NCBI GenBank assembly: GCA_964016885.1
Contig: OZ024746.1
Span: 29,884,001-29,948,000 of the forward strand
Source: Eledone cirrhosa
Taxonomy: Eukaryota
Length of the DNA stretch: 64,000 nucleotides
Direction: 5' to 3'
A program made the position numbers and the translations under genes. Of this stretch, positions 5,136 to 52,581 are shown one piece after another. The notes under the pieces are model-generated. The model worked only from the letters and a program-made list of their open reading frames with translations, was not told where the DNA came from and did no database searches. Every line of letters starts with the position of its first letter. The stretch's first letter is position 1.

Positions 5136-5289
5136 AATGTTATTATATGTTTCTTTATTAGCCACAGGGGCACAAAAGAAGGGGACAAATACAAAAGGGG
5201 AAGTTTACATACAATAAAAACGTGTAAAATATTATCACAAATGCAATTTAAAAATTAGTCGATTTTCCCCAATAGGAGGAGACATTACA

Positions 5290-8200
5290 TATGGGTAACA
5301 CATACCTCCGAAAAAAAATGTGCAACCCTCATCTCCAAGAGAACGAAGAGTTTGTACTCCTTTCCTTTCCTCCTCTTCTTCCTCAACCTACAGGCTGATA
5401 TAGAGAGAAGGCCCATTCTCGCCACTTTCACCCACCTTTCATAAAACTTGCTGGGGTACAGCACCTCTCTCTCCATCCTGATTCTTCGTCCAAAGTGGTA
5501 TTTGAAAAAAAGAATCACTTGTTGGCCGGAGAGAAAGGTGTCTGACTTCAGCCCTTTCAACATTGTCCACCATACAACCTCTTTCGCCATAGCTATCACA
5601 CAAAATAAAACCGCCTCTCCTTCGTTTTTGAAGGAGGGTGGCGGTTTGATCATGACAATGGACTCGGTGGTCAACCAGATTGGTCCCACCTGGCGACAAT
5701 AGTCGTTCTACATAGCCCCACAGTTCGGTGACGCCCGGACAGTGTATGAATGCGTGCGCGACGGTTTCTTCGTCTCGCACGCACCTCGGACAGATCTTTT
5801 TTGCAGGGTCCCTGTCCGGGCGCCCATGTCTGTAGAGCCTGTCTCGAACTGGTAGATCTCCTAGGTAGCACTGCCAGGCCAGGGACTTTTGGAAGTTGTC
5901 CATCGGTCCCGGACGGAAGGTCCTACCGAACAGACTGGCCAGTTCGTCTTCCTCTACGCCTAGAGTTTCACCGAGAACGTCGTCGCACTTGCTGCGGATC
6001 AACCCTCTATAGAATGACGAAGTAGAGTCTCCACTGATCGCCGAGTCCGCCTGCCAGAGGGCTGTAAGCGCCTGAGCACATTCGATGTGCCAGTCGCCCA
6101 TTTTCCTCGGTCTTTGCTTGACTCAGGACTGCAGCTCGATCAGCGAGACGAGTCGTGGGAAGGCTCGCTTCACAAAAGGGGCCCACACCGGTCGTCCGGT
6201 GAGGAATACGTAGAGATGCCGCAGCCTGAGCGCTTGTTTGCCCATCATAAGCCACGGCAACCCAAGCCCTCCGTTGGAAGGGTGTTGGCAGCAGATGGAT
6301 CTTCTCACCAAAGGATCCCGCCTCTTCCAAAGGAATTGGAAGAGCGCGCGCTCCATTTTGGAGACCGTTTTGACTGGACAAGGTACGACGGTCAAGCGGT
6401 AGTAGATGGCGGACGCTATAAAAGTCTTCGCCACCTCCACTCAACCTTTCAAGGATAGTTTGCACTCGGCCCACTTCTGGGTGAGTGCAAACCCTTGGCC
6501 GACACCTCGTTCCAGTTCTTCTCCACCTGTAGGTCCGGACCAAACCAGACCCCGAGTAGCTTTACTGGTTCTTCCGTCCAGTGTCCGACGACGCCATCGG
6601 AAGGCATCGGTCTGCCTCTGCACGATCCGAGTTGCAAACCGATGGACTTGTCCCAGTTCAGTTTCGCTCCTGTGAACCTTTCGTATTCCTTCAGTAAGGT
6701 GCCGACTTCCTCTATTTGCGAGGCGCTCGACACCATTACTGTCTAGTCGTCGGCGTAGGCCGACGCCGCTTTCCGCAGTCCCGGTTCCAGAAGGATGCCC
6801 TGCAATAGTTCCAACTTCGAGAGTCAGTACGTACAGAAGGGAGGAGAGAGGGCATCCCTTTCGAATGGATCGCGTGATATGGAACGGCTCTGAGAGGTAG
6901 CCGTTCACCTTAACCCTTGAGCAGATGTTGCTGTTGTGCATTGCAGCAATCCAGTCCCTGAACACGGGTCCGAAGCCTGCCGCCTCGAGTACCGCATCCA
7001 GGTAACGATGGTCAACCCTATCGAAAGCCTTAGACTGATCCAAGTTGATCAGGGCCCCACCGAAGCCGGGTTTACACCCTACCCTCTCTATGATGTATCG
7101 CATGAGGTGGAGGTTGTCGTGTATGGACCTGGTCGGGATTGCGCATGTCTGCGCTTCTCCCACCAGGTTCTCGACGACAAGCGTCAGCCTCTTTGCCAAC
7201 ACCTTGGCCAATGGGCCGGAAGTTGCCTATGTCATCCCCCTTATTCTCGTCCTTCCTGACTAGTGTGACTACGCCCCCGGTCACAGAACTGGGAATTCTC
7301 CCGCTCTGTTGCCAGTTGCAGTAGACCGCTTCCAGGAGACAGGAGAATAAGTCCGGCATTGCTACGTAAAATTCGTAGGGTAGACCGTCGAGACCTGGAA
7401 ATTTGCGTTTGCCGCATTGGCCTAGCGCGTCCCCTATCTCACCGGCTGAAATCGGCTTTTCGCAGAACTTTGTCTCGCTGTCCGAGAGTCGCGGTAGGCC
7501 GTCGAGGTATGGACCGAAATCCATAGCCCCTCCCGGCGCGCCGCCCTGCCCTAACAGTTGAGTAAAGTGCCGCTGAAAGGCCGCACGCATCTTCTTCGGC
7601 TCAGGTATCACGCGTCCGTTTTGGTCCTTCAAAGACCGAATCGTGGACTTGTCACTTTTTGCCTCCGTCACTCGGGCCCAGCTAACAGCTTTGGCTCCCT
7701 CGTTTCCCAGAGCACGTATTTTGCTCCTGACAACGCAGCCCTCATGCTTTGCGTCGAAGAACTGGTCCAAGACCGTTCTCGTTGCTAGCACGCTGGCTAC
7801 GTTGCCACTTCTAATTGCCTCTTCTACTTTATCTACCAGTTCTTTCTCGGTTCTATTTCTATCTAATGCTAATTCTTTACTAAAAACTAACGAGTCTAAT
7901 CTAACTGCCCTCTTGAGAGAGTACCACCATCTGTTGTTGACAATGGCCCCTGTCAAGTGCTGTTTAACTAACGTGCTAATCCGTCTACTGTAGGCTTTGC
8001 ATGTCGGTAATGACAAGTTCAGCTTCCAGTAGCCGGGTCCTTGTCTATGGGTTCTATCAAGGTTGACCATGCAGGTCACTAGTTTGTGATCTGAATAGGC
8101 AACCATGAACATTTGTGAACAGCTTAACATGTCCCTATCCTTATTTCTAACTAAAACCCTGTCTAGGTACGATCTAGATGTTCCGCTAAGATTAGTCCAC

Positions 8201-8765
8201 GTCCACAGTGGCACAGTCGGAAAATCTAGTCGATATCTATCGGCCAGGTCAAATAGGCCGATTAACTGTTTGAGGCTGTTACACCCCCCTTTATCGGGAC
8301 ATGCTCCCAGATAGTCCCAACGTGCATCTAGGATTCCATTCCAGTCCCCCACTAAAAGCAAGGAGCGGAACGTTCCCAGAAAAGTCTCTAGACGTTTGAA
8401 GAAGTCTGGCCGCGGTGTCCCGGTGGGGCATATACAGCCACCAGCCTGAAGGCTCCACCTTCACTGCCGTCAACGTCTAGGACCACCAGTCGATCCTCCG
8501 GGTCCAGATGTACCGTCTGTGTTACGAGGCCCAGGTGTTTCCGTAGCAAAACGGCAACCCCACCCCCACCACCCGGCCGACAGAGAGATGCGTAGATCTC
8601 AAAGTCATCGAAGATGGGGGCCAGCTGTCGCTCGCTGTGGATCCTGGACTCGCAAATGGCTACTACATCCGTACTGTGCGACCTGAGGTCGTTTAAGAGT
8701 TTGCCCTGTTTCCAGGGCATCCCCAGGCCGTGTACATTCACACATCCAACTCTTATATTAGCCAT
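5290..8765 (-). pseudogene. LINE ORF2 (APE endonuclease, reverse transcriptase, CCHC), frameshifted
   Basis: EN: CVNVHGL, AICES, AVYAP, LVGDWN, SYLDRV, SDHK, GPGYWKLN. RT: PGLDGLPYEFY, NFRPI, DQSKAFDRV, KGCPLS, AYADD (6746-6760, other frame), KLLGVWF. GGLGLP and CPRC..ETVAHAFIHC. Split over 6 or more ORFs. Confidence 0.92.
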
Positions 8766-9600
8766 GTTGGTTCAGAAAAGTTAAAAGAGGATAAGAAAAC
8801 ATTCACCTCTTCGTCTCCGGGGATCAGGCTGCACGGTTTCCATGGGGTGTTAGAGGGGTTGTCTGGGTGGGTGGTGGTTTCTGGCGGGGTGGCGACGGAG
8901 ATGTTTGGTGGGGTGGGGGTGTCTGGGGTGAGGGTGGGGAAACTGTTTAAAAGGACGCGGTTAATGGGTTTAACACAAGGATTACTCACGTCCTTAGGAT
9001 AGTTTTCCTTTAAAGACTTATAGGTGTCCGCAGGGACCCTAATCATCTTTAAATTAGGTTTGTCTACACAGTTCGAAAAAGTTTTCCCTTCAGTGAAAAC
9101 CGAAGGGTTGTTGGAGATGACCTCCATTAAAGTTTTGTCTTTACTGTTTATGAATGTGTAATGTTCTTGTTGTGTTGCGGTGGTTTTTGTCTGTTGTTCT
9201 TGTGGGAGCTTTCGTTTTGTTGTAGGTGTTTGTGGTTGAGGTGATGTCGTGGTTTTGTTTTCGGGACGGGGGGGTTTTGTTTGTAATGTTTGTGTTGTTT
9301 GTGTTGGTGGTTGTATTTTTGTTTTGTAGTGATGTTTGTTGTTTTTTTTGTTCTTGTGTCTTTTCTTCTTTCTTTTCGAACGGGGAGGCTCTCCCTCATC
9401 ATCACTTGGTGATGATGTGGAGGCTTCGTCCGTTGTGGTGTCTGTGTTATTTGGAAGGGGTATGTTTTGGGGAGCTGTTGTGTTTGTGGGTGTTTTTGCA
9501 GTGGTTTTAGGTGGAGTGAGGCTGGGTGGGACTGTGCTTGCAGGTTGGTTTGTTGTTTTTGTTTTGGTTGTGTTTGCGTGTTGTTGTTGTTGTTTTTGTG
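8753..9600 (-). pseudogene. LINE ORF1 C-terminal remnant (Pro/Thr/Lys low complexity)
   Basis: ORF 9127-8753 ends with a TAA that overlaps the ORF2 start (ATG at 8765) by 13 nt. Upstream low-complexity ORFs lie on the same strand. Confidence 0.6.
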
Positions 9601-13161: not shown

Positions 13162-13565
13162 ATATATATATATGTCAATATGTTGTTTCATAAATGGTTC
13201 AAACTGTTGGAAGAATACCACAATATTGTTTGACAAAATTATATGAGAAAGTATTAGAACATCTGAGATGTGATGAGATTTTGGGAAACTTGTGCCAAGT
13301 TAATTCTCTAAAAGGTTTTTTCCTTTAGTTGCCCTATACTCTTTCCATTTAATAAATGACACTGCGTTATTATTATTATTATTATTATTAATAATAGAAA
13401 CAATTATTATTAAAGTAGAAACAGTTATTATTATTATTAATACTACTACTAATAATAAACCAAATATGACTGCATGATGAAAATGGTTGCAGATCTAGAA
13501 ATGAAAAGAAATTACATTTACTCACAAAACAAAGGAGGTAGATTGCGGACGAATTCCACATGATG

Positions 13566-13764
13566 GTGTAGGACAGAACAAAGGAGAGACACAAAATAGT
13601 CACTGACGAGGTCCTCAGAATGTGTGACGAAAGAGCTTTGACAATATATAAACAACCTTCCGGTTATCGAACGAACGAACCAACCAACCAGAAACCTATA
13701 ATAAATTGAAGCGAAAACCACAGGTGCGTGTGTATTTAGTAGCAGCATGACCCTCCCGAAGTAT

Positions 13765-13770
<6 letters not shown>
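13566..13770 (+). mobile_element. Non-autonomous PLE-related element (family B) carrying a hammerhead
   Basis: Homologous to 37640-37836. Ends CATGACCCTCCCGAAGTATAACAA-(TA)n, like the PLE 3' end near 40388. Confidence 0.8.
13599..13642 (+). ncRNA. Type I minimal hammerhead ribozyme motif
   Basis: GTCA-CTGACGA-G-GTC..GAC-GAAA-GAGC-TT-TGAC. Stem I GTCA/TGAC, intact core, minimal stem III. Confidence 0.7.
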
Positions 13771-13817
<47 letters not shown>

Positions 13818-13911
13818 TAAATGAAAAATGGCGTGCTGTGTTGTTGCATATATGATATACAAATTAAAATGAAGAATTAGAAATTGAAGCCAGTATATAT
13901 ATATATGTGTG

Positions 13912-20227: not shown

Positions 20228-20282
20228 TTTCGTTTCTGAATTTGTTTAGCAAGATTCTTTATCTGAAATCGTCCCAAAGTAT

Positions 20283-20290
<8 letters not shown>
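20228..20290. mobile_element. Family B terminal fragment (inverted tail fused to CCCAAAGTATAACAA end)
   Basis: TTTCGTTTCTGAATTTGTTTA..ATCTGAAATCGT matches 42794-42838, followed by the family B 3' end; (TA)n on both sides. Confidence 0.7.
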
Positions 20291-20320
<30 letters not shown>

Positions 20321-20325
<5 letters not shown>

Positions 20326-20459
20326 AACGAGTAGGACCCCGACGGCTGAGCTCAAGCCGTTTCGACGGTTAATTCTGGACACACTACTACTCTACTACCC
20401 TAAGTATTGAGTACTTTGGGACGTTATGGTCCACCTGGTTCCTTACCACATTTCCTTCG

Positions 20460-20462
<3 letters not shown>
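20321..20462. mobile_element. Family C (TA)n-embedded element, internally inverted
   Basis: Two segments of the repeat seen at 40253 and 55569 are joined in opposite orientations. Confidence 0.8.
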
Positions 20463-37537: not shown

Positions 37538-37639
37538 AATACGCCTCAACTATCACTATTAAATTCTTATGAAAGATTAGTATCCGAAATGTAATCGCCC
37601 TCTTTCAAGCGTTAAACTAAAATATTTCTTCATTGTACT

Positions 37640-37830
37640 GTGTAGGACAGAACAAAGGAGAGACACAAATCACTCACTGAGGAGGTTACAGAATGAGTGA
37701 CGAAAGAGCTTTGACAATAAATAAAGAAGCATCTGGTTATTGAACCAACGACCCAGAAATTTACAATAGATTGAAGAGAAACGGAGCAGGTGCGTGTGTT
37801 TCTATTGCCAGCATGACCCTCCCAAAGTAT

Positions 37831-37836
<6 letters not shown>
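37640..37836 (+). mobile_element. Family B element with hammerhead (37674-37715)
   Basis: TCA-CTGAGGA-G-GTTAC..GTGAC-GAAA-GAGC-TT-TGA. Same start (GTGTAGGACAG) and end as the 13566 copy. Confidence 0.8.
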
Positions 37837-37986: not shown

Positions 37987-38408
<422 letters not shown>

Positions 38409-40254: not shown

Positions 40255-40368
40255 CGAAGGAAATGTGGTAGGAACCAGGTGGACCATAACGCACCAAACT
40301 ACTCAATACTTAGGGTAGTAGAGTGGGTAATAGGAACGAGTAGGACCCCGACGGCTAATTCTGGACTA
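40253..40368. mobile_element. Family C fragment
   Basis: Matches 55569-55706 with an internal deletion. Confidence 0.8.
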
Positions 40369-40405: not shown

Positions 40406-40407
<2 letters not shown>

Positions 40408-42398
40408 TGTTATACTTGGGGAGGGTCATATTTGTGTAATAATATTGCCAGAATTAATAACAGAACACATTAACTCTTTGGTTGGTTTTCGCTTCTGTGT
40501 CTTTTATATCGGTTAATTTAATTTATTCGGTCCTGAATGGTATCCATTGACTGACCAACGGTCAAAAATACAGATACAATATAGACACAAACGCATATAT
40601 ATAGTCTAACAAAGTTCTTTCGTTGCACATCTGCAACGCGTCAGTGGTGCTATTATGTTTCCTCCCGTTGTATTGTATGCCTACGCCATCTTTATTTAGT
40701 CTGTTTATTTATTTATTTATCTATTTACTTTTTTTTTTGTCTTCTCTGCGCATGCGTTTGCGTGTGTGCATAGTGTTTGATGTGTGTTCGTGTTTGGGTG
40801 ACTGTGTATTAGTTATTGTATTCTATCTTAGTTTACTAGTGTGTGTTTATATGTGTTTGTTGTTATTGTGCTTGTGTATTTATTTATTTATACTTCTCTT
40901 AGGTCAGTATTGTTAGTTTGGGTGTTGTTGTTATTCCATTCATTTTTTCTATTTAGCCTTGGCCTTCTAAGTTCTATTTCGCTGGCCTATCTGATTTGCC
41001 TATCTGCTGAGTCATTTCTATGTTTAGATATTATTCTAATTTCTATGTTGTCTATGTTACCGTCGTGTTGTTGTCTGGCATGTTCGTATAGTACTGAACC
41101 ATTTTTTCGTCCTTTTAGTTCCCCCCAGTGTTGGTCTATCCTTTCACCTATTCTACGAGCTGTCTCGCCTATGTATGTTGTTGTCATGTTTCTGCAAGTA
41201 CCCTCTGTACATCTTATGCTATAGACTACGTTTCTAGTTTTACAGTTTATCTGGGGGTTTACTTTACATATAATACATTTCCTATTAGTACAGTGGGTTT
41301 TCTTAAAAGAGTAGGCTTTGCTCATCAGGGATTTTATGGTGGTTCCCTGCTTTTCTACCACCTTAATCTTTAAGTGGGTCTTCCTCAGGACCTTTCTACA
41401 CTGGTTAGATACTTTCCCTCCAGGGGTAGCGTCCACAAACATGACACTCTGGTATCTCTGGTTGTCGTACCATGAGGTGGCTTTCCCTATCTTATGTCTA
41501 GTCCTATCTAAGCTATTCCATGATTTGCTCCTGTATAATGGGCAAATTTCTTTCATGTCCAGTTCTATGAGGGTCTTATACTTCTCCCTGGCTCCTTCGT
41601 ATATTCTGATTTTGTCTCTTTGGTTGTAGCCAGAGAACTGCATGCGGTTGATGAAGTGTTGGATGTGTCTTTCTATTTCTGTTGGGTCGCACATGCGGGA
41701 CACGTTCTTCATCACTCGTACCAAGTCTGCGATCAGAATATTAAAATTAGTACTACTGGACATTGCTGAGTTTTTGAGTATCAGGTATTTGGAGGCCATG
41801 GGTTTAGCATAGTGTGAGTGGAGAATTTGGGCTCTCTCGTCTATAGTGTTAATCCAGAGTTCCGTTTCTAATAGAGGTAGTCTATTGTTAGGGTGTTTGG
41901 AACGGTAGTCGATAGTTACAGTTATACTCTGCTGTATGGAATTAGCTATCTGCTGGATGCTTTCCATTGTGCTACGTTCTAAATCAAACTTGCTAGTACT
42001 CTCTTGTAGGGATGTCCTTATTACTATATTGATATCGTCTACGTAACGAGAGTACATGATGAGGTCTATGGAGCTCTCATCAAGGAGATCTTTAAGTCTC
42101 CTTTCCCACCATATCATAAAAAGGTTGGCAACGTCACCAGCTATGCTGACGCCAATGGCTGCTCCCTCATTTTGGGTGTAGATCTTCTCGTTGAATTTGA
42201 ATATGTGGCCCTTTAGGGTAGTTTTGATACTAGCCCCTATTGCATGTGCGACCATTTTTCTTACCTGATCATTGTTTTGGGGGATCCGTATAGCTTTGGT
42301 CCACACAATCCACCTTCCCATGGGAGTCTTTGCACCCCCCCCCCCAGTATAACAATATTTGTTTCGACACACGATTTCATATGAAAACCCTCGCAAAA

Positions 42399-42400
<2 letters not shown>
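40406..42400 (-). mobile_element. Penelope-like retroelement, 5'-truncated, with inverted terminal segment
   Basis: RT-GIY-YIG ORF and a 3' UTR with hammerhead-like CTGACGC-GTTGCA-GATG-TGCAAC-GAAA (~40612-40646, -). Ends GACCCTCCCAAGTATAACAA-(TA)n. Inverted CAGTATAACAATAT plus tail at ~42345-42400. Confidence 0.88.
40890..42330 (-). pseudogene. PLE reverse transcriptase (C-terminal half) plus Cys-rich linker plus GIY-YIG endonuclease
   Basis: IYTQNEGAAIG..ANLFM, RYVDDI, LPLLE, CTNRKCIIC..C, VVYSIRC, YIGETARRIGERI, HARQQH. After a TAG the frame continues ASEIELRRPRLNRKNEW. Confidence 0.9.
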
Positions 42401-42451
<51 letters not shown>

Positions 42452-42744: not shown

Positions 42745-42793
<49 letters not shown>

Positions 42794-42796
<3 letters not shown>

Positions 42797-42905
42797 CGTT
42801 TCTGAATTTGTTTACCAAGATTCTTTATCTGAAATCGTGTTTGGAAACCGATATTGTTATACTTTGGGAGGGTCATGTTGCCAATAAGAAACACACGCAC
42901 CAGTT
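42794..42905 (-). mobile_element. Family B 3' end including tail
   Basis: The minus strand reads GGTGCGTGTGTTTC..CATGACCCTCCCAAAGTATAACAATAT plus a ~57-bp tail ending in (TA)n. Confidence 0.8.
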
Positions 42906-43123
42906 GCTTTCACTTCAATTTATTATATATATATATAAACTCACTAGTAGCTATTTATTTTGCTTCTAAATTAATGCAATAGTAAATACGAAATTTGGTA
43001 TTCTTTTAAGTATTTCTGCCATTGTTTGTTCAGATAAATCCTAAAACATCCTAAATCCTAACATGTTATTGGCTCTTATTTGAATAACATGTGCTGTGTG
43101 TGTGTGTGTGTGTATGTGTGTGT

Positions 43124-48626: not shown

Positions 48627-49165
48627 TTATATATATACGTATATATATATGTATATATGTATATATATTATATTTATATATATACGTATATATATATGTA
48701 TATATGTATATATATGTATATATATAAAATATATATATATATATATATACACATATATATATATGTGTGGGGGTGGGTATAGACTTCATTAATTCTCATC
48801 TCTATCTCATCTTCTGCTGCTGCCGCTTGTCTTTCTCTTTAAACAATTTTTTTTTTATTTCTCACTTTTCAAATATAATTTTAAAGAAATGAAAGTAATA
48901 CCATTCACATATATTGAGCAAGGAGTGAAAAGTAATTTCATATTTCACCGTTTAAAAAATATCGATCTTAATTTCAAATGTTAGGGAAGATCACGTTTGT
49001 TAATTGTTTGTCATCTTGTACACATGGATATATATACAGATACATACATACATACATACATACATACATACATACATACATACATACATACATACATACA
49101 TACATACATACATACATACATACATACATACATACCACTCACTAGACTGTCAACGTGATCAGTCG

Positions 49166-49865
49166 CAAAACACTGTACACTGCAGTTCGTAAAAAAGATA
49201 GCCCCGATAATAAACACATTAAAAGCTACAATAATGTGGAAGACATCCATGTACATAATATGAAAGAGTACTGGTGGAATGTTCCAGTAAAAACCCCAAT
49301 AAAATGCAGGCATAACAGACCAAATATTATGATATGGGACAGGGAGAAGAAAACATGCACAGTAGTGGAAATTAGCTGCCCAGCAGATGCCAATATAATA
49401 TCAAAGATTAGTGAAAAGGAGAATATTTATGCAGAACTGATGAGAAATCTGCAGATACTCCACCCTGATTACACCTTCAGATTTATGCCTGTGATTATTG
49501 GGGCACTGGGATATGTTAGTAACTGCCTCAATACAAATCTTGAGAGGCTGGGCTTCACAGGAGCAGAAAGAACACAACTAGTTAGGAAATTACAAGTACA
49601 ATCTATTAATGGAACAGTAAAAATATGTAAAACATTCCAAAAATGTTGCATCTAATAACTGCATATACACATGTACAGATACAAAGCATATATACATGCA
49701 CACATACAACTCAAAACATACACATCCATATCTACACATGCATTAATACATACATATCTACCTAGTTGATGTTGTGTAAATTCCAATGAGAGAGTCTTGT
49801 ATCTATGTTAGAAACCGACTCTCTCTCTATTGGTAAAACTTTTTGAATTTATAAAACCAGAAGAA
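49166..49865 (+). mobile_element. R4/Dong-like non-LTR element, short 5'-truncated copy
   Basis: REL endonuclease HNRPNIMIWD..VVEISCP..KENIY..PVIIGALG. Near identical to 51857-52581; (CATA)n on both sides. Confidence 0.88.
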
Positions 49866-50480
49866 CATACATACATGATGGCTGCCCTCGTTATCGAGTA
49901 TGGCCATTGCACGATATACTATTATTAATAATTATTAATTAATTCTATCGTGCAATGCCTGTGCATGAAGATATTTTTTAAAGTGAGGAAAGACTGTGCC
50001 AATCCCACTCTCTGAGCGACAGTAGCTATAACCCGAAAAGAAGAATAGATCAACATCATCGGTAACTACTAAACCGCAGGTTTTATATCGCAGTTATCCC
50101 ATTTTCCTGAGTTGGCTTCTTCTAGAATACCCTGACAAAGTCTAGTGGTCCTTGACTCCCAGTGGTTTAACCGCGCGGTACATGTGTATATACATATTTA
50201 CACACTTTTGGATGGCCGTTGACTCTTATGAGTTCTTCCGCCCTTTGACAGGTTTTGTTTTTGTCCTGCAGAGTGTCCAAAATAACCCTCCTCACCAAGT
50301 AAACTTGGTGGGGTTGCCAGTTTAATCGCCAACGACCCGACCATACGACAGGTTGTACTGGGTTACATGTTACCAGTAGCACTCAAGAGTGACACGACAT
50401 ACATACATACATACATACATACATACATACATACATACATACATACATACATACATACATACATACATACATACATACAT

Positions 50481-52581
50481 TACAGTCTGGCTGGACTACA
50501 AGAAAGCTTTCGATTCTGTTCCCCACTCTTGGATGATAGAGGCCCTTCAACTTGCTAAAGTCCCAGACATTATTGTCAGAGCCATAGAGAGGCTGTCTTC
50601 TTCTTGGGCTATTATCCTAAGGTTAAAGACAGAGAGGGAGGACTCTATTTTCACTGATAAAATAAAATACTGCAGGGGTATATTTCAGGGGGACAGTCTC
50701 TCTGTGATATTGTTCATCTTGTCATTAAACCCCTTGTCCTTTCTGCTCAAGAAATGTGAGGGATACATCATTGGCTCACAGGAGGACAGAAATACGAACC
50801 TAACCCATAACTTCTTTGTGGACGATCTGAAACTCTATGCCAAGAACATGGATGGGATGAAGAAAAATCTTGACCTGGTTACAACGTTCTCAAAGGATAT
50901 AGGAATGGAGTTTGGCCAAGATAAATGCTGATACGTGACTGTAAAGCGGGGAAAAACAACACCCCAATCTAGCAGATGAGGACTGCTATAGATACCTGGG
51001 GATAGATGAGAACATATCCTATAATGGTATCTGTAATAAAGAACGTGTAACCAGGGAATACTACACCCGATTAAGAAAGATCAGGTCATCGGAACTCTCT
51101 GCGCAAAACAAAACAGTGGCTCACAATGTGTTTGCTGTGCCTGTCCTAACACCAACGTTTGGAATACTCAATTGGACGATAGACGAAATCCGACCAGTTG
51201 ATGTTGGAACTCGAAAAATACTGAACAACACCGGAAACTTCCACATCAACAGTGACATAGACCGCCTTTACTTGAAACGTAGGCAGGGAGGCAGAGGCCT
51301 AACATCAGTCCAGACAACATTTGAATGTCGCATCATATATCTCCGACAACATCTACGAACCTCGAAGCGTAGGAGCCCGCTTCTCGAGCAAGTCTATCTG
51401 CATGAAACAGATAAGATGATGAGAGTTGGGAAGGAACTCCTTGAGAGATATTCCCTGTGTGATAATCGAAAAATCACACCCAGGGATGTCGCTCAGCAGT
51501 ATCGCAGTGAATCCATGGATGAAAAAGTGCATGCCTATCAGCAAAAAATCATGCATGGATATGTTGCCAGGAAGCTCCAGAGTGAGAGTAATATAGATAA
51601 GGAAAGTAGTCTATCTTGGACCAACAACCGTTATATTGGCTCCCACTTTGAAGGATACGCTTTTGCAATCCAAGAACAGGAGATTAGCACGAAATACCTG
51701 ATTCACAAAAGAGATAGGGATGCAGGCAAAACACCTAGATGTGATAACAAGTGCAGACTCTGCAGAACTAACATCTAGGATATCACCCATGTCAACAGCA
51801 GCTGCCCAAAGATGTCATCGCGGTACTATGTACATACGATGCATGATGTAGTGGCCAAAACACTGTACAATGCAGTTCGTAAAAAAGATAGCCCCGATGA
51901 TAAACACATTAAAAGCTACAACAATGTGGAAGACATCCATGTACATAATATGTAAGAGTACTGGTGGAATGTTCCAGTAAAAACCCCAATAAAATGCAGG
52001 CATAACAGACCAGATATTATGATATGGGACAGGGAGAAGAAAACATGCACAGTAGTGGAAATTAGCTGCCCAGCAGATGCCAATATAATGTCACAGATTA
52101 GTGAAAAGGAGAATATTTATGCAGAACTGATTAGAAATCTGCAGATACTCCACCCTGATTACACCTTCAGATTTATGCCTGTGATTATTGGGGCACTGGG
52201 ATATGTTAGTAACTGCCTCAATACAAATCTTGAGAAGCTAGGCTTCACAGGAACAGCAAGAACACAACTAGTTAGGAAATTACAAGTACAATCCATTAAT
52301 GGAACAGTAAAAATATGTAAAACATTCCAAAAATTTTGCATCTATTAACTGCATATACACATGTACAGATACAAAGCATATACACATGCACACATACAAC
52401 TCAAAACATACACATCCACACATACAATAACATCAGTATCTACACATGCATGCATGCAGACATACATACATATCTACCTAGTTGATGTTGTATAAATTCC
52501 AATGACATAGTCTTGTGCCTATGTTAGAAACCGACTCTCTCTCTATTGGTAAAACTTTGTGAAATTATAAAACCAGAAGAA
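50481..52581 (+). mobile_element. R4/Dong-like non-LTR element (RT plus CCHC plus REL endonuclease), 5'-truncated pseudogene
   Basis: [62 protein letters not shown]. Flanked by (ACAT)n. Confidence 0.9.

What the first reader, a model, noticed from the sequence alone, without database searches (positions are those of the whole stretch)
13566..13770. Defined ~200-bp non-autonomous hammerhead element sharing its 3' end with the coding PLE
Seen: copies at 13566 and 37640 begin at the same base (GTGTAGGACAG) and end ATGACCCTCCC(G/A)AAGTATAACAA-(TA)n. That terminus also ends the RT/GIY-YIG element (~40406-40428, -) and recurs at 20272 and 42851. Merging the two copies reconstructs a perfect 8-bp stem II (GTCACTCA-GAA-TGAGTGAC). 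The autonomous element has a different stem II sequence (GTTGCA/TGCAAC) with the same CACTGAC..GAAAGARCTTTG frame. Inference: a PLE-dependent SINE-like/retrozyme family whose last ~22 nt are the RT recognition signal.
Basis: partly seen in the sequence, partly recalled or inferred. Interest (0 to 1): 0.75.

Follow-up and report, generated by a model that had tools for sequence, protein, structure and literature searches.

The report
Penelope element end, not separate SINE
The 200-base repeat is the end-piece of a protein-coding Penelope-type jumping gene of this genome, with a predicted self-cutting RNA fold, rather than a separate small parasite; short copies of it are over-represented and are likely made when the element's enzyme copies only the leader of its own RNA.

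Summary
The repeat and its minimal hammerhead fold are real, but it is not a separate SINE or retrozyme. It is the pseudo-LTR (pLTR) of a coding Penelope-like family ('A'), sister to the window's RT/GIY-YIG fragment ('B', 65% aa). It follows the ORF in 28 of 30 coding loci and flanks 1263-1283-aa ORFs in 12 of 12 young copies fetched. The shared terminus is ORF codons 1-8; an optional ~60-nt tail continues it. 5' ends are not fixed (3 of 42 within 2 nt of 13566), short and long copies are mixed in trees, and the '8-bp stem II' is a merge of two mutated copies (family: 6 bp). What survives: 5' ends pile up in a band near a YY1-like motif; in head-to-head insertions one arm alone has the tail (45 of 47), and a band-limited arm is never paired with a long arm (0 of 47, 7.2 expected). 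Best reading (inferred): two-site priming on one short, promoter-limited RNA. The scan noted the two-end rule before on other DNA of this genome. New member of a known kind.

The parts
13562..13770 (+). Old-subfamily (A1) copy of the family-A pLTR: 5'-short insertion without tail, followed by (TA)n
13599..13642 (+). Predicted minimal type I hammerhead: stem I 13599-13602/13639-13642, core 13603-13609, extra G 13610, stem II (mutated in this copy), GAAA 13629-13632, predicted cut after 13638
   Evidence: sequence; family parse; fold
13747..13770 (+). Shared terminus = codons 1-8 of the PLE ORF (MTLPKYNN); inferred first RT start site
13771..13819 (.). (TA)n target tract
   Evidence: 20 of 21 tailless termini in random DNA are followed by (AT)5
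37639..37836 (+). Second A1 pLTR copy, no tail, stem II with two mismatches, followed by (TA)n
20229..20288 (.). Minimal head-to-head insertion in (TA)n: inverted part of the family-A tail (20229-20271, -) joined to the last 17 nt of the terminus (20272-20288, +)
42793..42935 (-). 59-nt family-A pLTR fragment + terminus (42876-42853) + 60-nt tail (codons 9-28; 42852-42793), then (TA)n
40406..42336 (-). 5'-truncated family-B PLE: RT C-half and GIY-YIG (42330-40990, premature stop), own pLTR with damaged hammerhead (40648-40608), terminus without tail
42337..42403 (+). Inverted family-B terminus + tail at the 5' end of the truncated B copy (the tail-bearing arm of that insertion)

Best explanation
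The unit is the pLTR plus the first eight codons of a coding, (TA)n-inserting Penelope-like retrotransposon family, and its short copies are likely run-off products of the element's own reverse transcriptase priming inside a promoter-limited RNA. Shown: the unit lies behind and in front of RT-GIY-YIG ORFs; copy ends fall at codon 8 or about codon 28; head-to-head insertions carry the tail on one arm; 5' ends are scattered but in excess within about -70 to +30 of a YY1-like motif at 13562. Inferred: the endonuclease nicks both strands of a (TA)n tract; the two DNA ends prime at two internal sites about 60 nt apart near the ORF start; when the template is an RNA that begins at the pLTR promoter and priming uses its 5'-proximal sites, both cDNAs stop at or before the RNA's 5' end and give 200-280-nt leader-only copies; priming behind the downstream pLTR of long read-through RNA gives long copies. 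The hammerhead does not set the 5' end: band copies include about 45-145 nt upstream of the predicted cut, so the template was likely uncleaved.
For: L016 runs from GIY-YIG coding sequence into the unit. 28 of 30 loci found with that coding stretch (one is the query's own) have the unit right behind it; all 30 match the window PLE protein. 12 of 12 fetched young loci have pLTR - 1263-1283-aa ORF starting at the terminus ATG - pLTR, with the same stem II. 5' ends: 42 A1 copies taken in genome order by an internal 23-mer span +96 to < -550; 21 of 42 lie in -55..+30, rate 1.1-1.2 per 100 nt at risk against 0.07 in -340..-56 (p 1.6e-7). Independent sample (120 random 10-kb stretches + first 30 exact termini): 8 of 52 in -25..0 (p 2e-6 against upstream, 8e-4 against downstream). 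None of the band copies has same-strand element sequence further upstream. One tail per inverted pair: 11 of 12 random, 10 of 10, 24 of 25 (0.50 expected if independent, p 0.003 for the random set). Band arm paired with long arm: 0 of 47 insertions, 7.2 expected by permutation, P 7e-5. Short copies intermixed with long ones: 10 changes against 9.8 shuffled, one clade rejected p-AU 4e-85 (38 rows). Literature: two internal RT starts bracketing the tail, and cleavage not needed (PMC11167929); pLTR including the first 12 codons, 22 with tail (PMC3846280).
Against: No RNA data: promoter, start site and cleavage are untested. Band limits were chosen after seeing the data, so p-values are optimistic. 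The upstream pLTRs of full-length A copies do not respect the band (2 of 12 inside, 7 further upstream, 3 downstream), so long copies need another template (read-through, tandem or circle). The pooled old-subfamily tree shows mild clustering of short copies (23 changes against 29.8, 6 of 500 shuffles) and does not reject one clade (p-AU 0.57); the two sets were picked by different queries and the unbiased subset shows none (10 against 9.5), but it is unresolved. The band lies beside A/C-rich low-complexity sequence where alignment ends can slip or RT may stall. A second cluster of ends (4 of 42 at -361..-347) is unexplained.
Confidence: 0.8

Rival explanations
1. Plain random 5' truncation of a long element; the band reflects an RT pause or a microhomology hot spot, with no short RNA class.
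For: 5' ends are spread over more than 1 kb; only 3 of 42 lie within 2 nt of 13566; the band borders A/C-rich sequence; upstream pLTRs of full-length copies ignore the band.
Against: A pause site would act on each arm independently, yet band arms never pair with long arms (0 of 47, 7.2 expected); the rate of ends falls about 15-fold upstream of the band.
Confidence: 0.2
2. Solo pLTR+tail insertions are transcribed from their own promoter and re-mobilised in trans, so part of the short class behaves like a nascent SINE, renewed from each coding subfamily.
For: Tail-bearing short copies hold the putative promoter and both priming sites; pLTR sequences sufficed for mobilisation in trans in a rotifer (PMC3846280 passage); non-autonomous pLTR-forming PLEs exist (PMC8557442 passage); mild clustering in the pooled old tree.
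Against: No diagnostic column (best p 0.003 among 190 tested; short-short, long-long and short-long identity 0.887, 0.883, 0.884); in the young set short copies are as close to long as to other short copies (0.96-0.996 for 10 of 11) and one clade is rejected.
Confidence: 0.25
3. One reading: an independent, fixed-length hammerhead SINE/retrozyme family that shares only a 22-nt recognition signal with the coding PLE.
For: Two window copies start within 4 nt of each other; high copy number (24,953 exact matches of a 30-nt end motif, control 0); stem II differs from the neighbouring coding element.
Against: The whole unit is the pLTR of coding family A; no fixed 5' end; no head-to-tail unit arrays: same-strand termini under 700 nt apart were 31, of which 27 in one 24-nt minisatellite (L022), 1 a 24-nt duplication and 3 separated by TA tracts; the 22 nt are coding.
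Confidence: 0.05

Closest known systems
pLTRs of EN+ Penelope-like elements with minimal hammerheads (Cervera and de la Pena 2014, PMC4209133; first quarter of text read)
   Same: Minimal type I fold in the pLTR, short helix I (4-5 bp), an unpaired nucleotide 5' of stem II, unstable helix III, most motifs single and tied to truncated PLEs, some in opposite strands 100-700 bp apart.
   Different: Stem II is 6 bp here; family B helix I keeps only 2 firm pairs in this parse. Cleavage untested.
Neptune/Nematis-type PLEs and general PLE insertion structure (Craig et al. 2021, PMC8557442; passages read)
   Same: C-terminal GIY-YIG, CX2-5CxxC linker, (TA)n preference, 5' truncation, partial tandems, inverted 5' copy, tail at one end.
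   Different: Tail about 60 nt rather than 30-40; ORF 1210-1283 aa with N-rich insert; clade not placed by a tree.
Adineta vaga Penelope pLTRs (Arkhipova et al. 2013, PMC3846280; passages read)
   Same: About 200-bp pLTR that includes the first codons of the ORF (12 there, 8 here), more with the tail (22 there, about 28 here); tail on one inverted pLTR; solo pLTRs.
   Different: Those are Penelope/Poseidon group with TSDs; solo pLTRs were put down to recombination or deletion, not to a short template class.
Anolis Poseidon PAc in vitro (Frangieh et al. 2024, PMC11167929; first half of text read)
   Same: RT starts inside the ORF 5' region at two sites that bracket the tail; AT-rich target, both strands cut; hammerhead cleavage not needed.
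   Different: There the ORF starts inside the hammerhead and RT starts at 111-118 nt; here the ATG is about 110-140 nt behind the cut site and ends are at nt 24 and about 85.
Animal non-LTR retrozymes (PMC7229834, passages; bioRxiv 10.64898/2026.07.22.740005, parts 1-3 of 5)
   Same: Type I hammerhead, 200-300 nt, related to PLE pLTRs.
   Different: Retrozymes are head-to-tail arrays with canonical hammerheads; this unit forms none in the loci held and is colinear with a coding element.

Membership tests
EN+ Penelope-like element (pLTR of) | Single ORF with RT and C-terminal GIY-YIG, flanked by the repeat | tested here: met
   12 of 12 loci with pLTR-ORF-pLTR; DKSG, YVDD, Y-x-I-x-C...YIGET motifs. 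Pfam gave only a sub-threshold RVT_1 hit for the window fragment and none for full proteins.
EN+ Penelope-like element (pLTR of) | Partial tandems, inverted 5' copy, optional tail | tested here: met
   62 of 93 arms have an inverted partner
EN+ Penelope-like element (pLTR of) | Minimal hammerhead in the pLTR | tested here: met
   Core conserved; stem II pairs 3 and 4 change on both sides between A (C-G, A-T) and B (T-A, G-C); 124 of 164 A and 44 of 49 B parsed motifs intact. Structure predicted only.
Neptune clade | CX2-5CxxC linker before the endonuclease | tested here: met
   C-x4-C-xx-C in both families; shared with Nematis per PMC8557442
Neptune clade | RT phylogeny with reference clades | not tested
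   No named reference PLE proteins were at hand; homologues found are unnamed
Non-LTR retrozyme | Head-to-tail tandem units each with a hammerhead | tested here: not met
   No unit arrays in the 322 loci held
Non-LTR retrozyme | Abundant circular RNA, self-cleavage | not testable with these tools
   No RNA holder listed
SINE-like non-autonomous family | Fixed 5' end | tested here: not met
   3 of 42 within 2 nt of 13566; a broad band instead
SINE-like non-autonomous family | Body not colinear with a coding element, shared 3' end only | tested here: not met
SINE-like non-autonomous family | Own lineage of master copies | tested here: not met
   Rejected in the young set; inconclusive in the old subfamily

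The most novel reading that the evidence does not exclude
Each insertion is made from one RNA by paired priming at two fixed sites in the ORF start, and a large class of SINE-sized Penelope 'solo pLTRs' are not truncations but complete run-off copies of the mRNA leader, from a YY1-type internal start to codon 8 or 28. Internal priming would thus mass-produce ready-made, promoter- and ribozyme-bearing mini-elements, a direct birth route for animal retrozymes, and the genome's copy ends map the PLE promoter and priming sites without any experiment.
Probability: 0.4. Interest if true: 0.55.

Novelty: new member of a known kind. Interest (0 to 1): 0.3.

Why it matters
As an element it is ordinary: a very abundant Penelope-like family with a known type of ribozyme. 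It matters as a caution (a pLTR of an unseen sister family mimics a SINE in one window) and as a test bed: tens of thousands of copies, with young intact-looking ORFs, record where PLE reverse transcription starts and stops. The one-tail rule and the arm-length pairing are countable predictions about the still open PLE insertion mechanism and about how retrozymes arise from pLTRs.

Tried and rejected
Rfam scan of the window: the 150 of 181 matches shown were microsatellite-driven miRNA models below gathering score; no hammerhead among those shown. Pfam on full-length proteins: nothing. Single-strand folding does not single out these minimal ribozymes (z 0.8 to -1.9 for 6 of 6), so it is no evidence either way beyond showing the family fold in L002 and L274 and not in the window copies. 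First 5'-end mapping was spoiled for some rows by untrimmed references and was redone; a nearest-neighbour table was spoiled by one gappy row and redone. Rows dropped before counts: family-B termini, L150 (unassigned), L233:8863 (B-type end on A sequence), and L207+ (2 nt aligned). Hammerhead cut as the 5' end: rejected, 1 of 42 A1 ends within 5 nt of the site. Extra silent-site conservation of the terminus: not shown. TSD at the two window copies: none visible. A genome-wide count of tandems reading into the family-A ORF was not obtained; their number is open. Look-up of earlier findings by sequence gave nothing. Literature searches listed no paper on this family or on promoter-limited leader copies; only listings were seen for most hits, Repbase and subscription papers are not covered, and bioRxiv supplements were not seen.

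Full report
Observation. The two copies (13566, 37640) are real and homologous and end in the same terminus before (TA)n. The terminus pattern matches four places in the window, none expected by chance. 20272 is only its last 17-19 nt behind an inverted piece of tail. The window lies in a 3.0-Gb animal assembly (G000); the best protein homologue is labelled Octopus vulgaris, which suggests a cephalopod. A DNA search gave 2448 candidates and a 30-nt end motif 24,953 exact matches, control 0. In 120 random 10-kb stretches there were 39 termini, about 25 of family A and 14 of family B.

What the unit is. Among the 30 best copies, several ran on upstream, and L016 ran straight into GIY-YIG coding sequence 65% identical to the window's PLE. 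Searching with that coding stretch gave 30 loci; all match the PLE protein and 28 (one the query's own locus) carry the unit directly behind. Following the younger subfamilies, 12 of 12 fetched loci have a 1263-1283-aa ORF with the pLTR behind it and at least part of it in front. Their pLTR is about 70% identical to the window copies with gaps, 82-89% per aligned column, with the same stem II. So the unit is the pLTR of coding family A; the window's coding fragment belongs to sister family B (65% aa over 778 residues) with its own pLTR. Both have a C-x4-C-xx-C linker before the endonuclease, the Neptune/Nematis mark in PMC8557442; no tree with references was made.

The shared end. In tandems the terminus reads on as the ORF: it is codons 1-8, and the optional tail is codons 9 to about 28. 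The first nine residues are identical in A and B and both nucleotide differences are silent; silent-site identity (6 of 8) is not clearly above the RT region (0.54-0.58). This is the arrangement described for rotifer Penelopes (PMC3846280 passages), and PMC11167929 showed in vitro that RT starts at two sites in the ORF 5' region that bracket the tail. The end is therefore a likely priming site, but not a private SINE signal.

The ribozyme. The family fold is a minimal type I hammerhead: 4-5-bp stem I, core, one extra nucleotide, 6-bp stem II, near-palindromic 2-bp stem III, as in PMC4209133. Activity is untested.

5' ends. Of the first 42 exact matches of an internal A1 motif (41 mapped, plus L073, a coding locus already held), ends run from +96 to beyond -550 relative to 13562; 3 lie within 2 nt of 13566. 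But 21 lie in -55..+30 and only 2 in -340..-56 (p 1.6e-7); the second sample has 8 of 52 in -25..0, and family B 3 of 14 in -15..+1 of its own motif. The landmark reads CAAGATGGC in the middle subfamily, the motif given as the YY1 site at the start of mammalian L1 in PMC5381506 (passages); family B keeps a variant. That it is a promoter here is inference. Against a simple picture, upstream pLTRs of full-length copies mostly start beyond the band (7 of 12).

Paired arms. 62 of 93 mapped arms have an inverted partner at their 5' junction. Exactly one arm carries the tail in 45 of 47 pairs, none has two (one further pair seen, L104/L105, has a tail on one arm and an ORF-reading tandem on the other and fell outside the loci scanned). 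In 47 insertions with both 5' ends mapped, a band arm is never paired with a long arm (7.2 expected, P 7e-5; limits chosen post hoc, samples pooled). This fits both arms being copied from the same short RNA or RNA class.

Separate lineage? No diagnostic column separates short from long A1 copies. In the mostly younger set (11 short, 27 long) the label is not clustered and one clade is rejected. The pooled old set shows mild clustering and is unresolved; its unbiased subset shows none. No head-to-tail arrays of the unit were found in the loci held.

Verdict. Known kind of system, new family. The identity as a PLE pLTR is shown (about 0.95); the short-template mechanism is inferred (about 0.5); trans-mobilisation of some solo copies is not excluded. 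Earlier notes of this scan on other DNA of this genome report the two-end rule and single-template copying for other PLE families; I counted the tail rule before reading them and tested arm pairing afterwards. Interest 0.3.

Noticed in passing
L105:1249-1508 (and its inverted partner in L104; G000:C1:2085000-2093000): A young family-A pLTR with 32 A>G changes and 2 other changes against L274 over about 260 nt, in both arms of the insertion: looks like ADAR-type hyper-editing of the template RNA fixed in DNA.
   Followed up: partly
L022:850-1524 (- strand): The 24-nt terminus is expanded into a head-to-tail minisatellite of more than 25 units directly behind a pLTR copy; L021 has a 24-nt duplication of it. 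Suggests repeated re-priming at the first site.
   Followed up: no
L293, L289, L296, L320: 4 of 42 A1 5' ends cluster at -361..-347, inside the endonuclease coding region; unexplained second stop site.
   Followed up: no
window 1132 (+), 38785 (+), 40005 (+), 39698 (-), 43705 (-): Other hammerhead-like cores from different repeat families; 39698/40005 form an inverted pair with a long stem II.
   Followed up: no
window 5285-8771 (-), 49146-52348 (+): Broken non-LTR retrotransposon ORFs with RVT_1 hits.
   Followed up: no
window 20323-20460, 38028-38100, 40255-40365: Another short repeat family sits inside the same (TA)n tracts next to PLE ends; also seen beside L012, L041, L063.
   Followed up: no
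L247, L255, L271-L282: Both families have long N/H/T-rich low-complexity inserts in the N-terminal half of the ORF, different in A and B.
   Followed up: no
L233:8274-8900, L286: Family-B ends inserted into the TA tract right behind family-A ends: the families nest in each other's target tracts.
   Followed up: no
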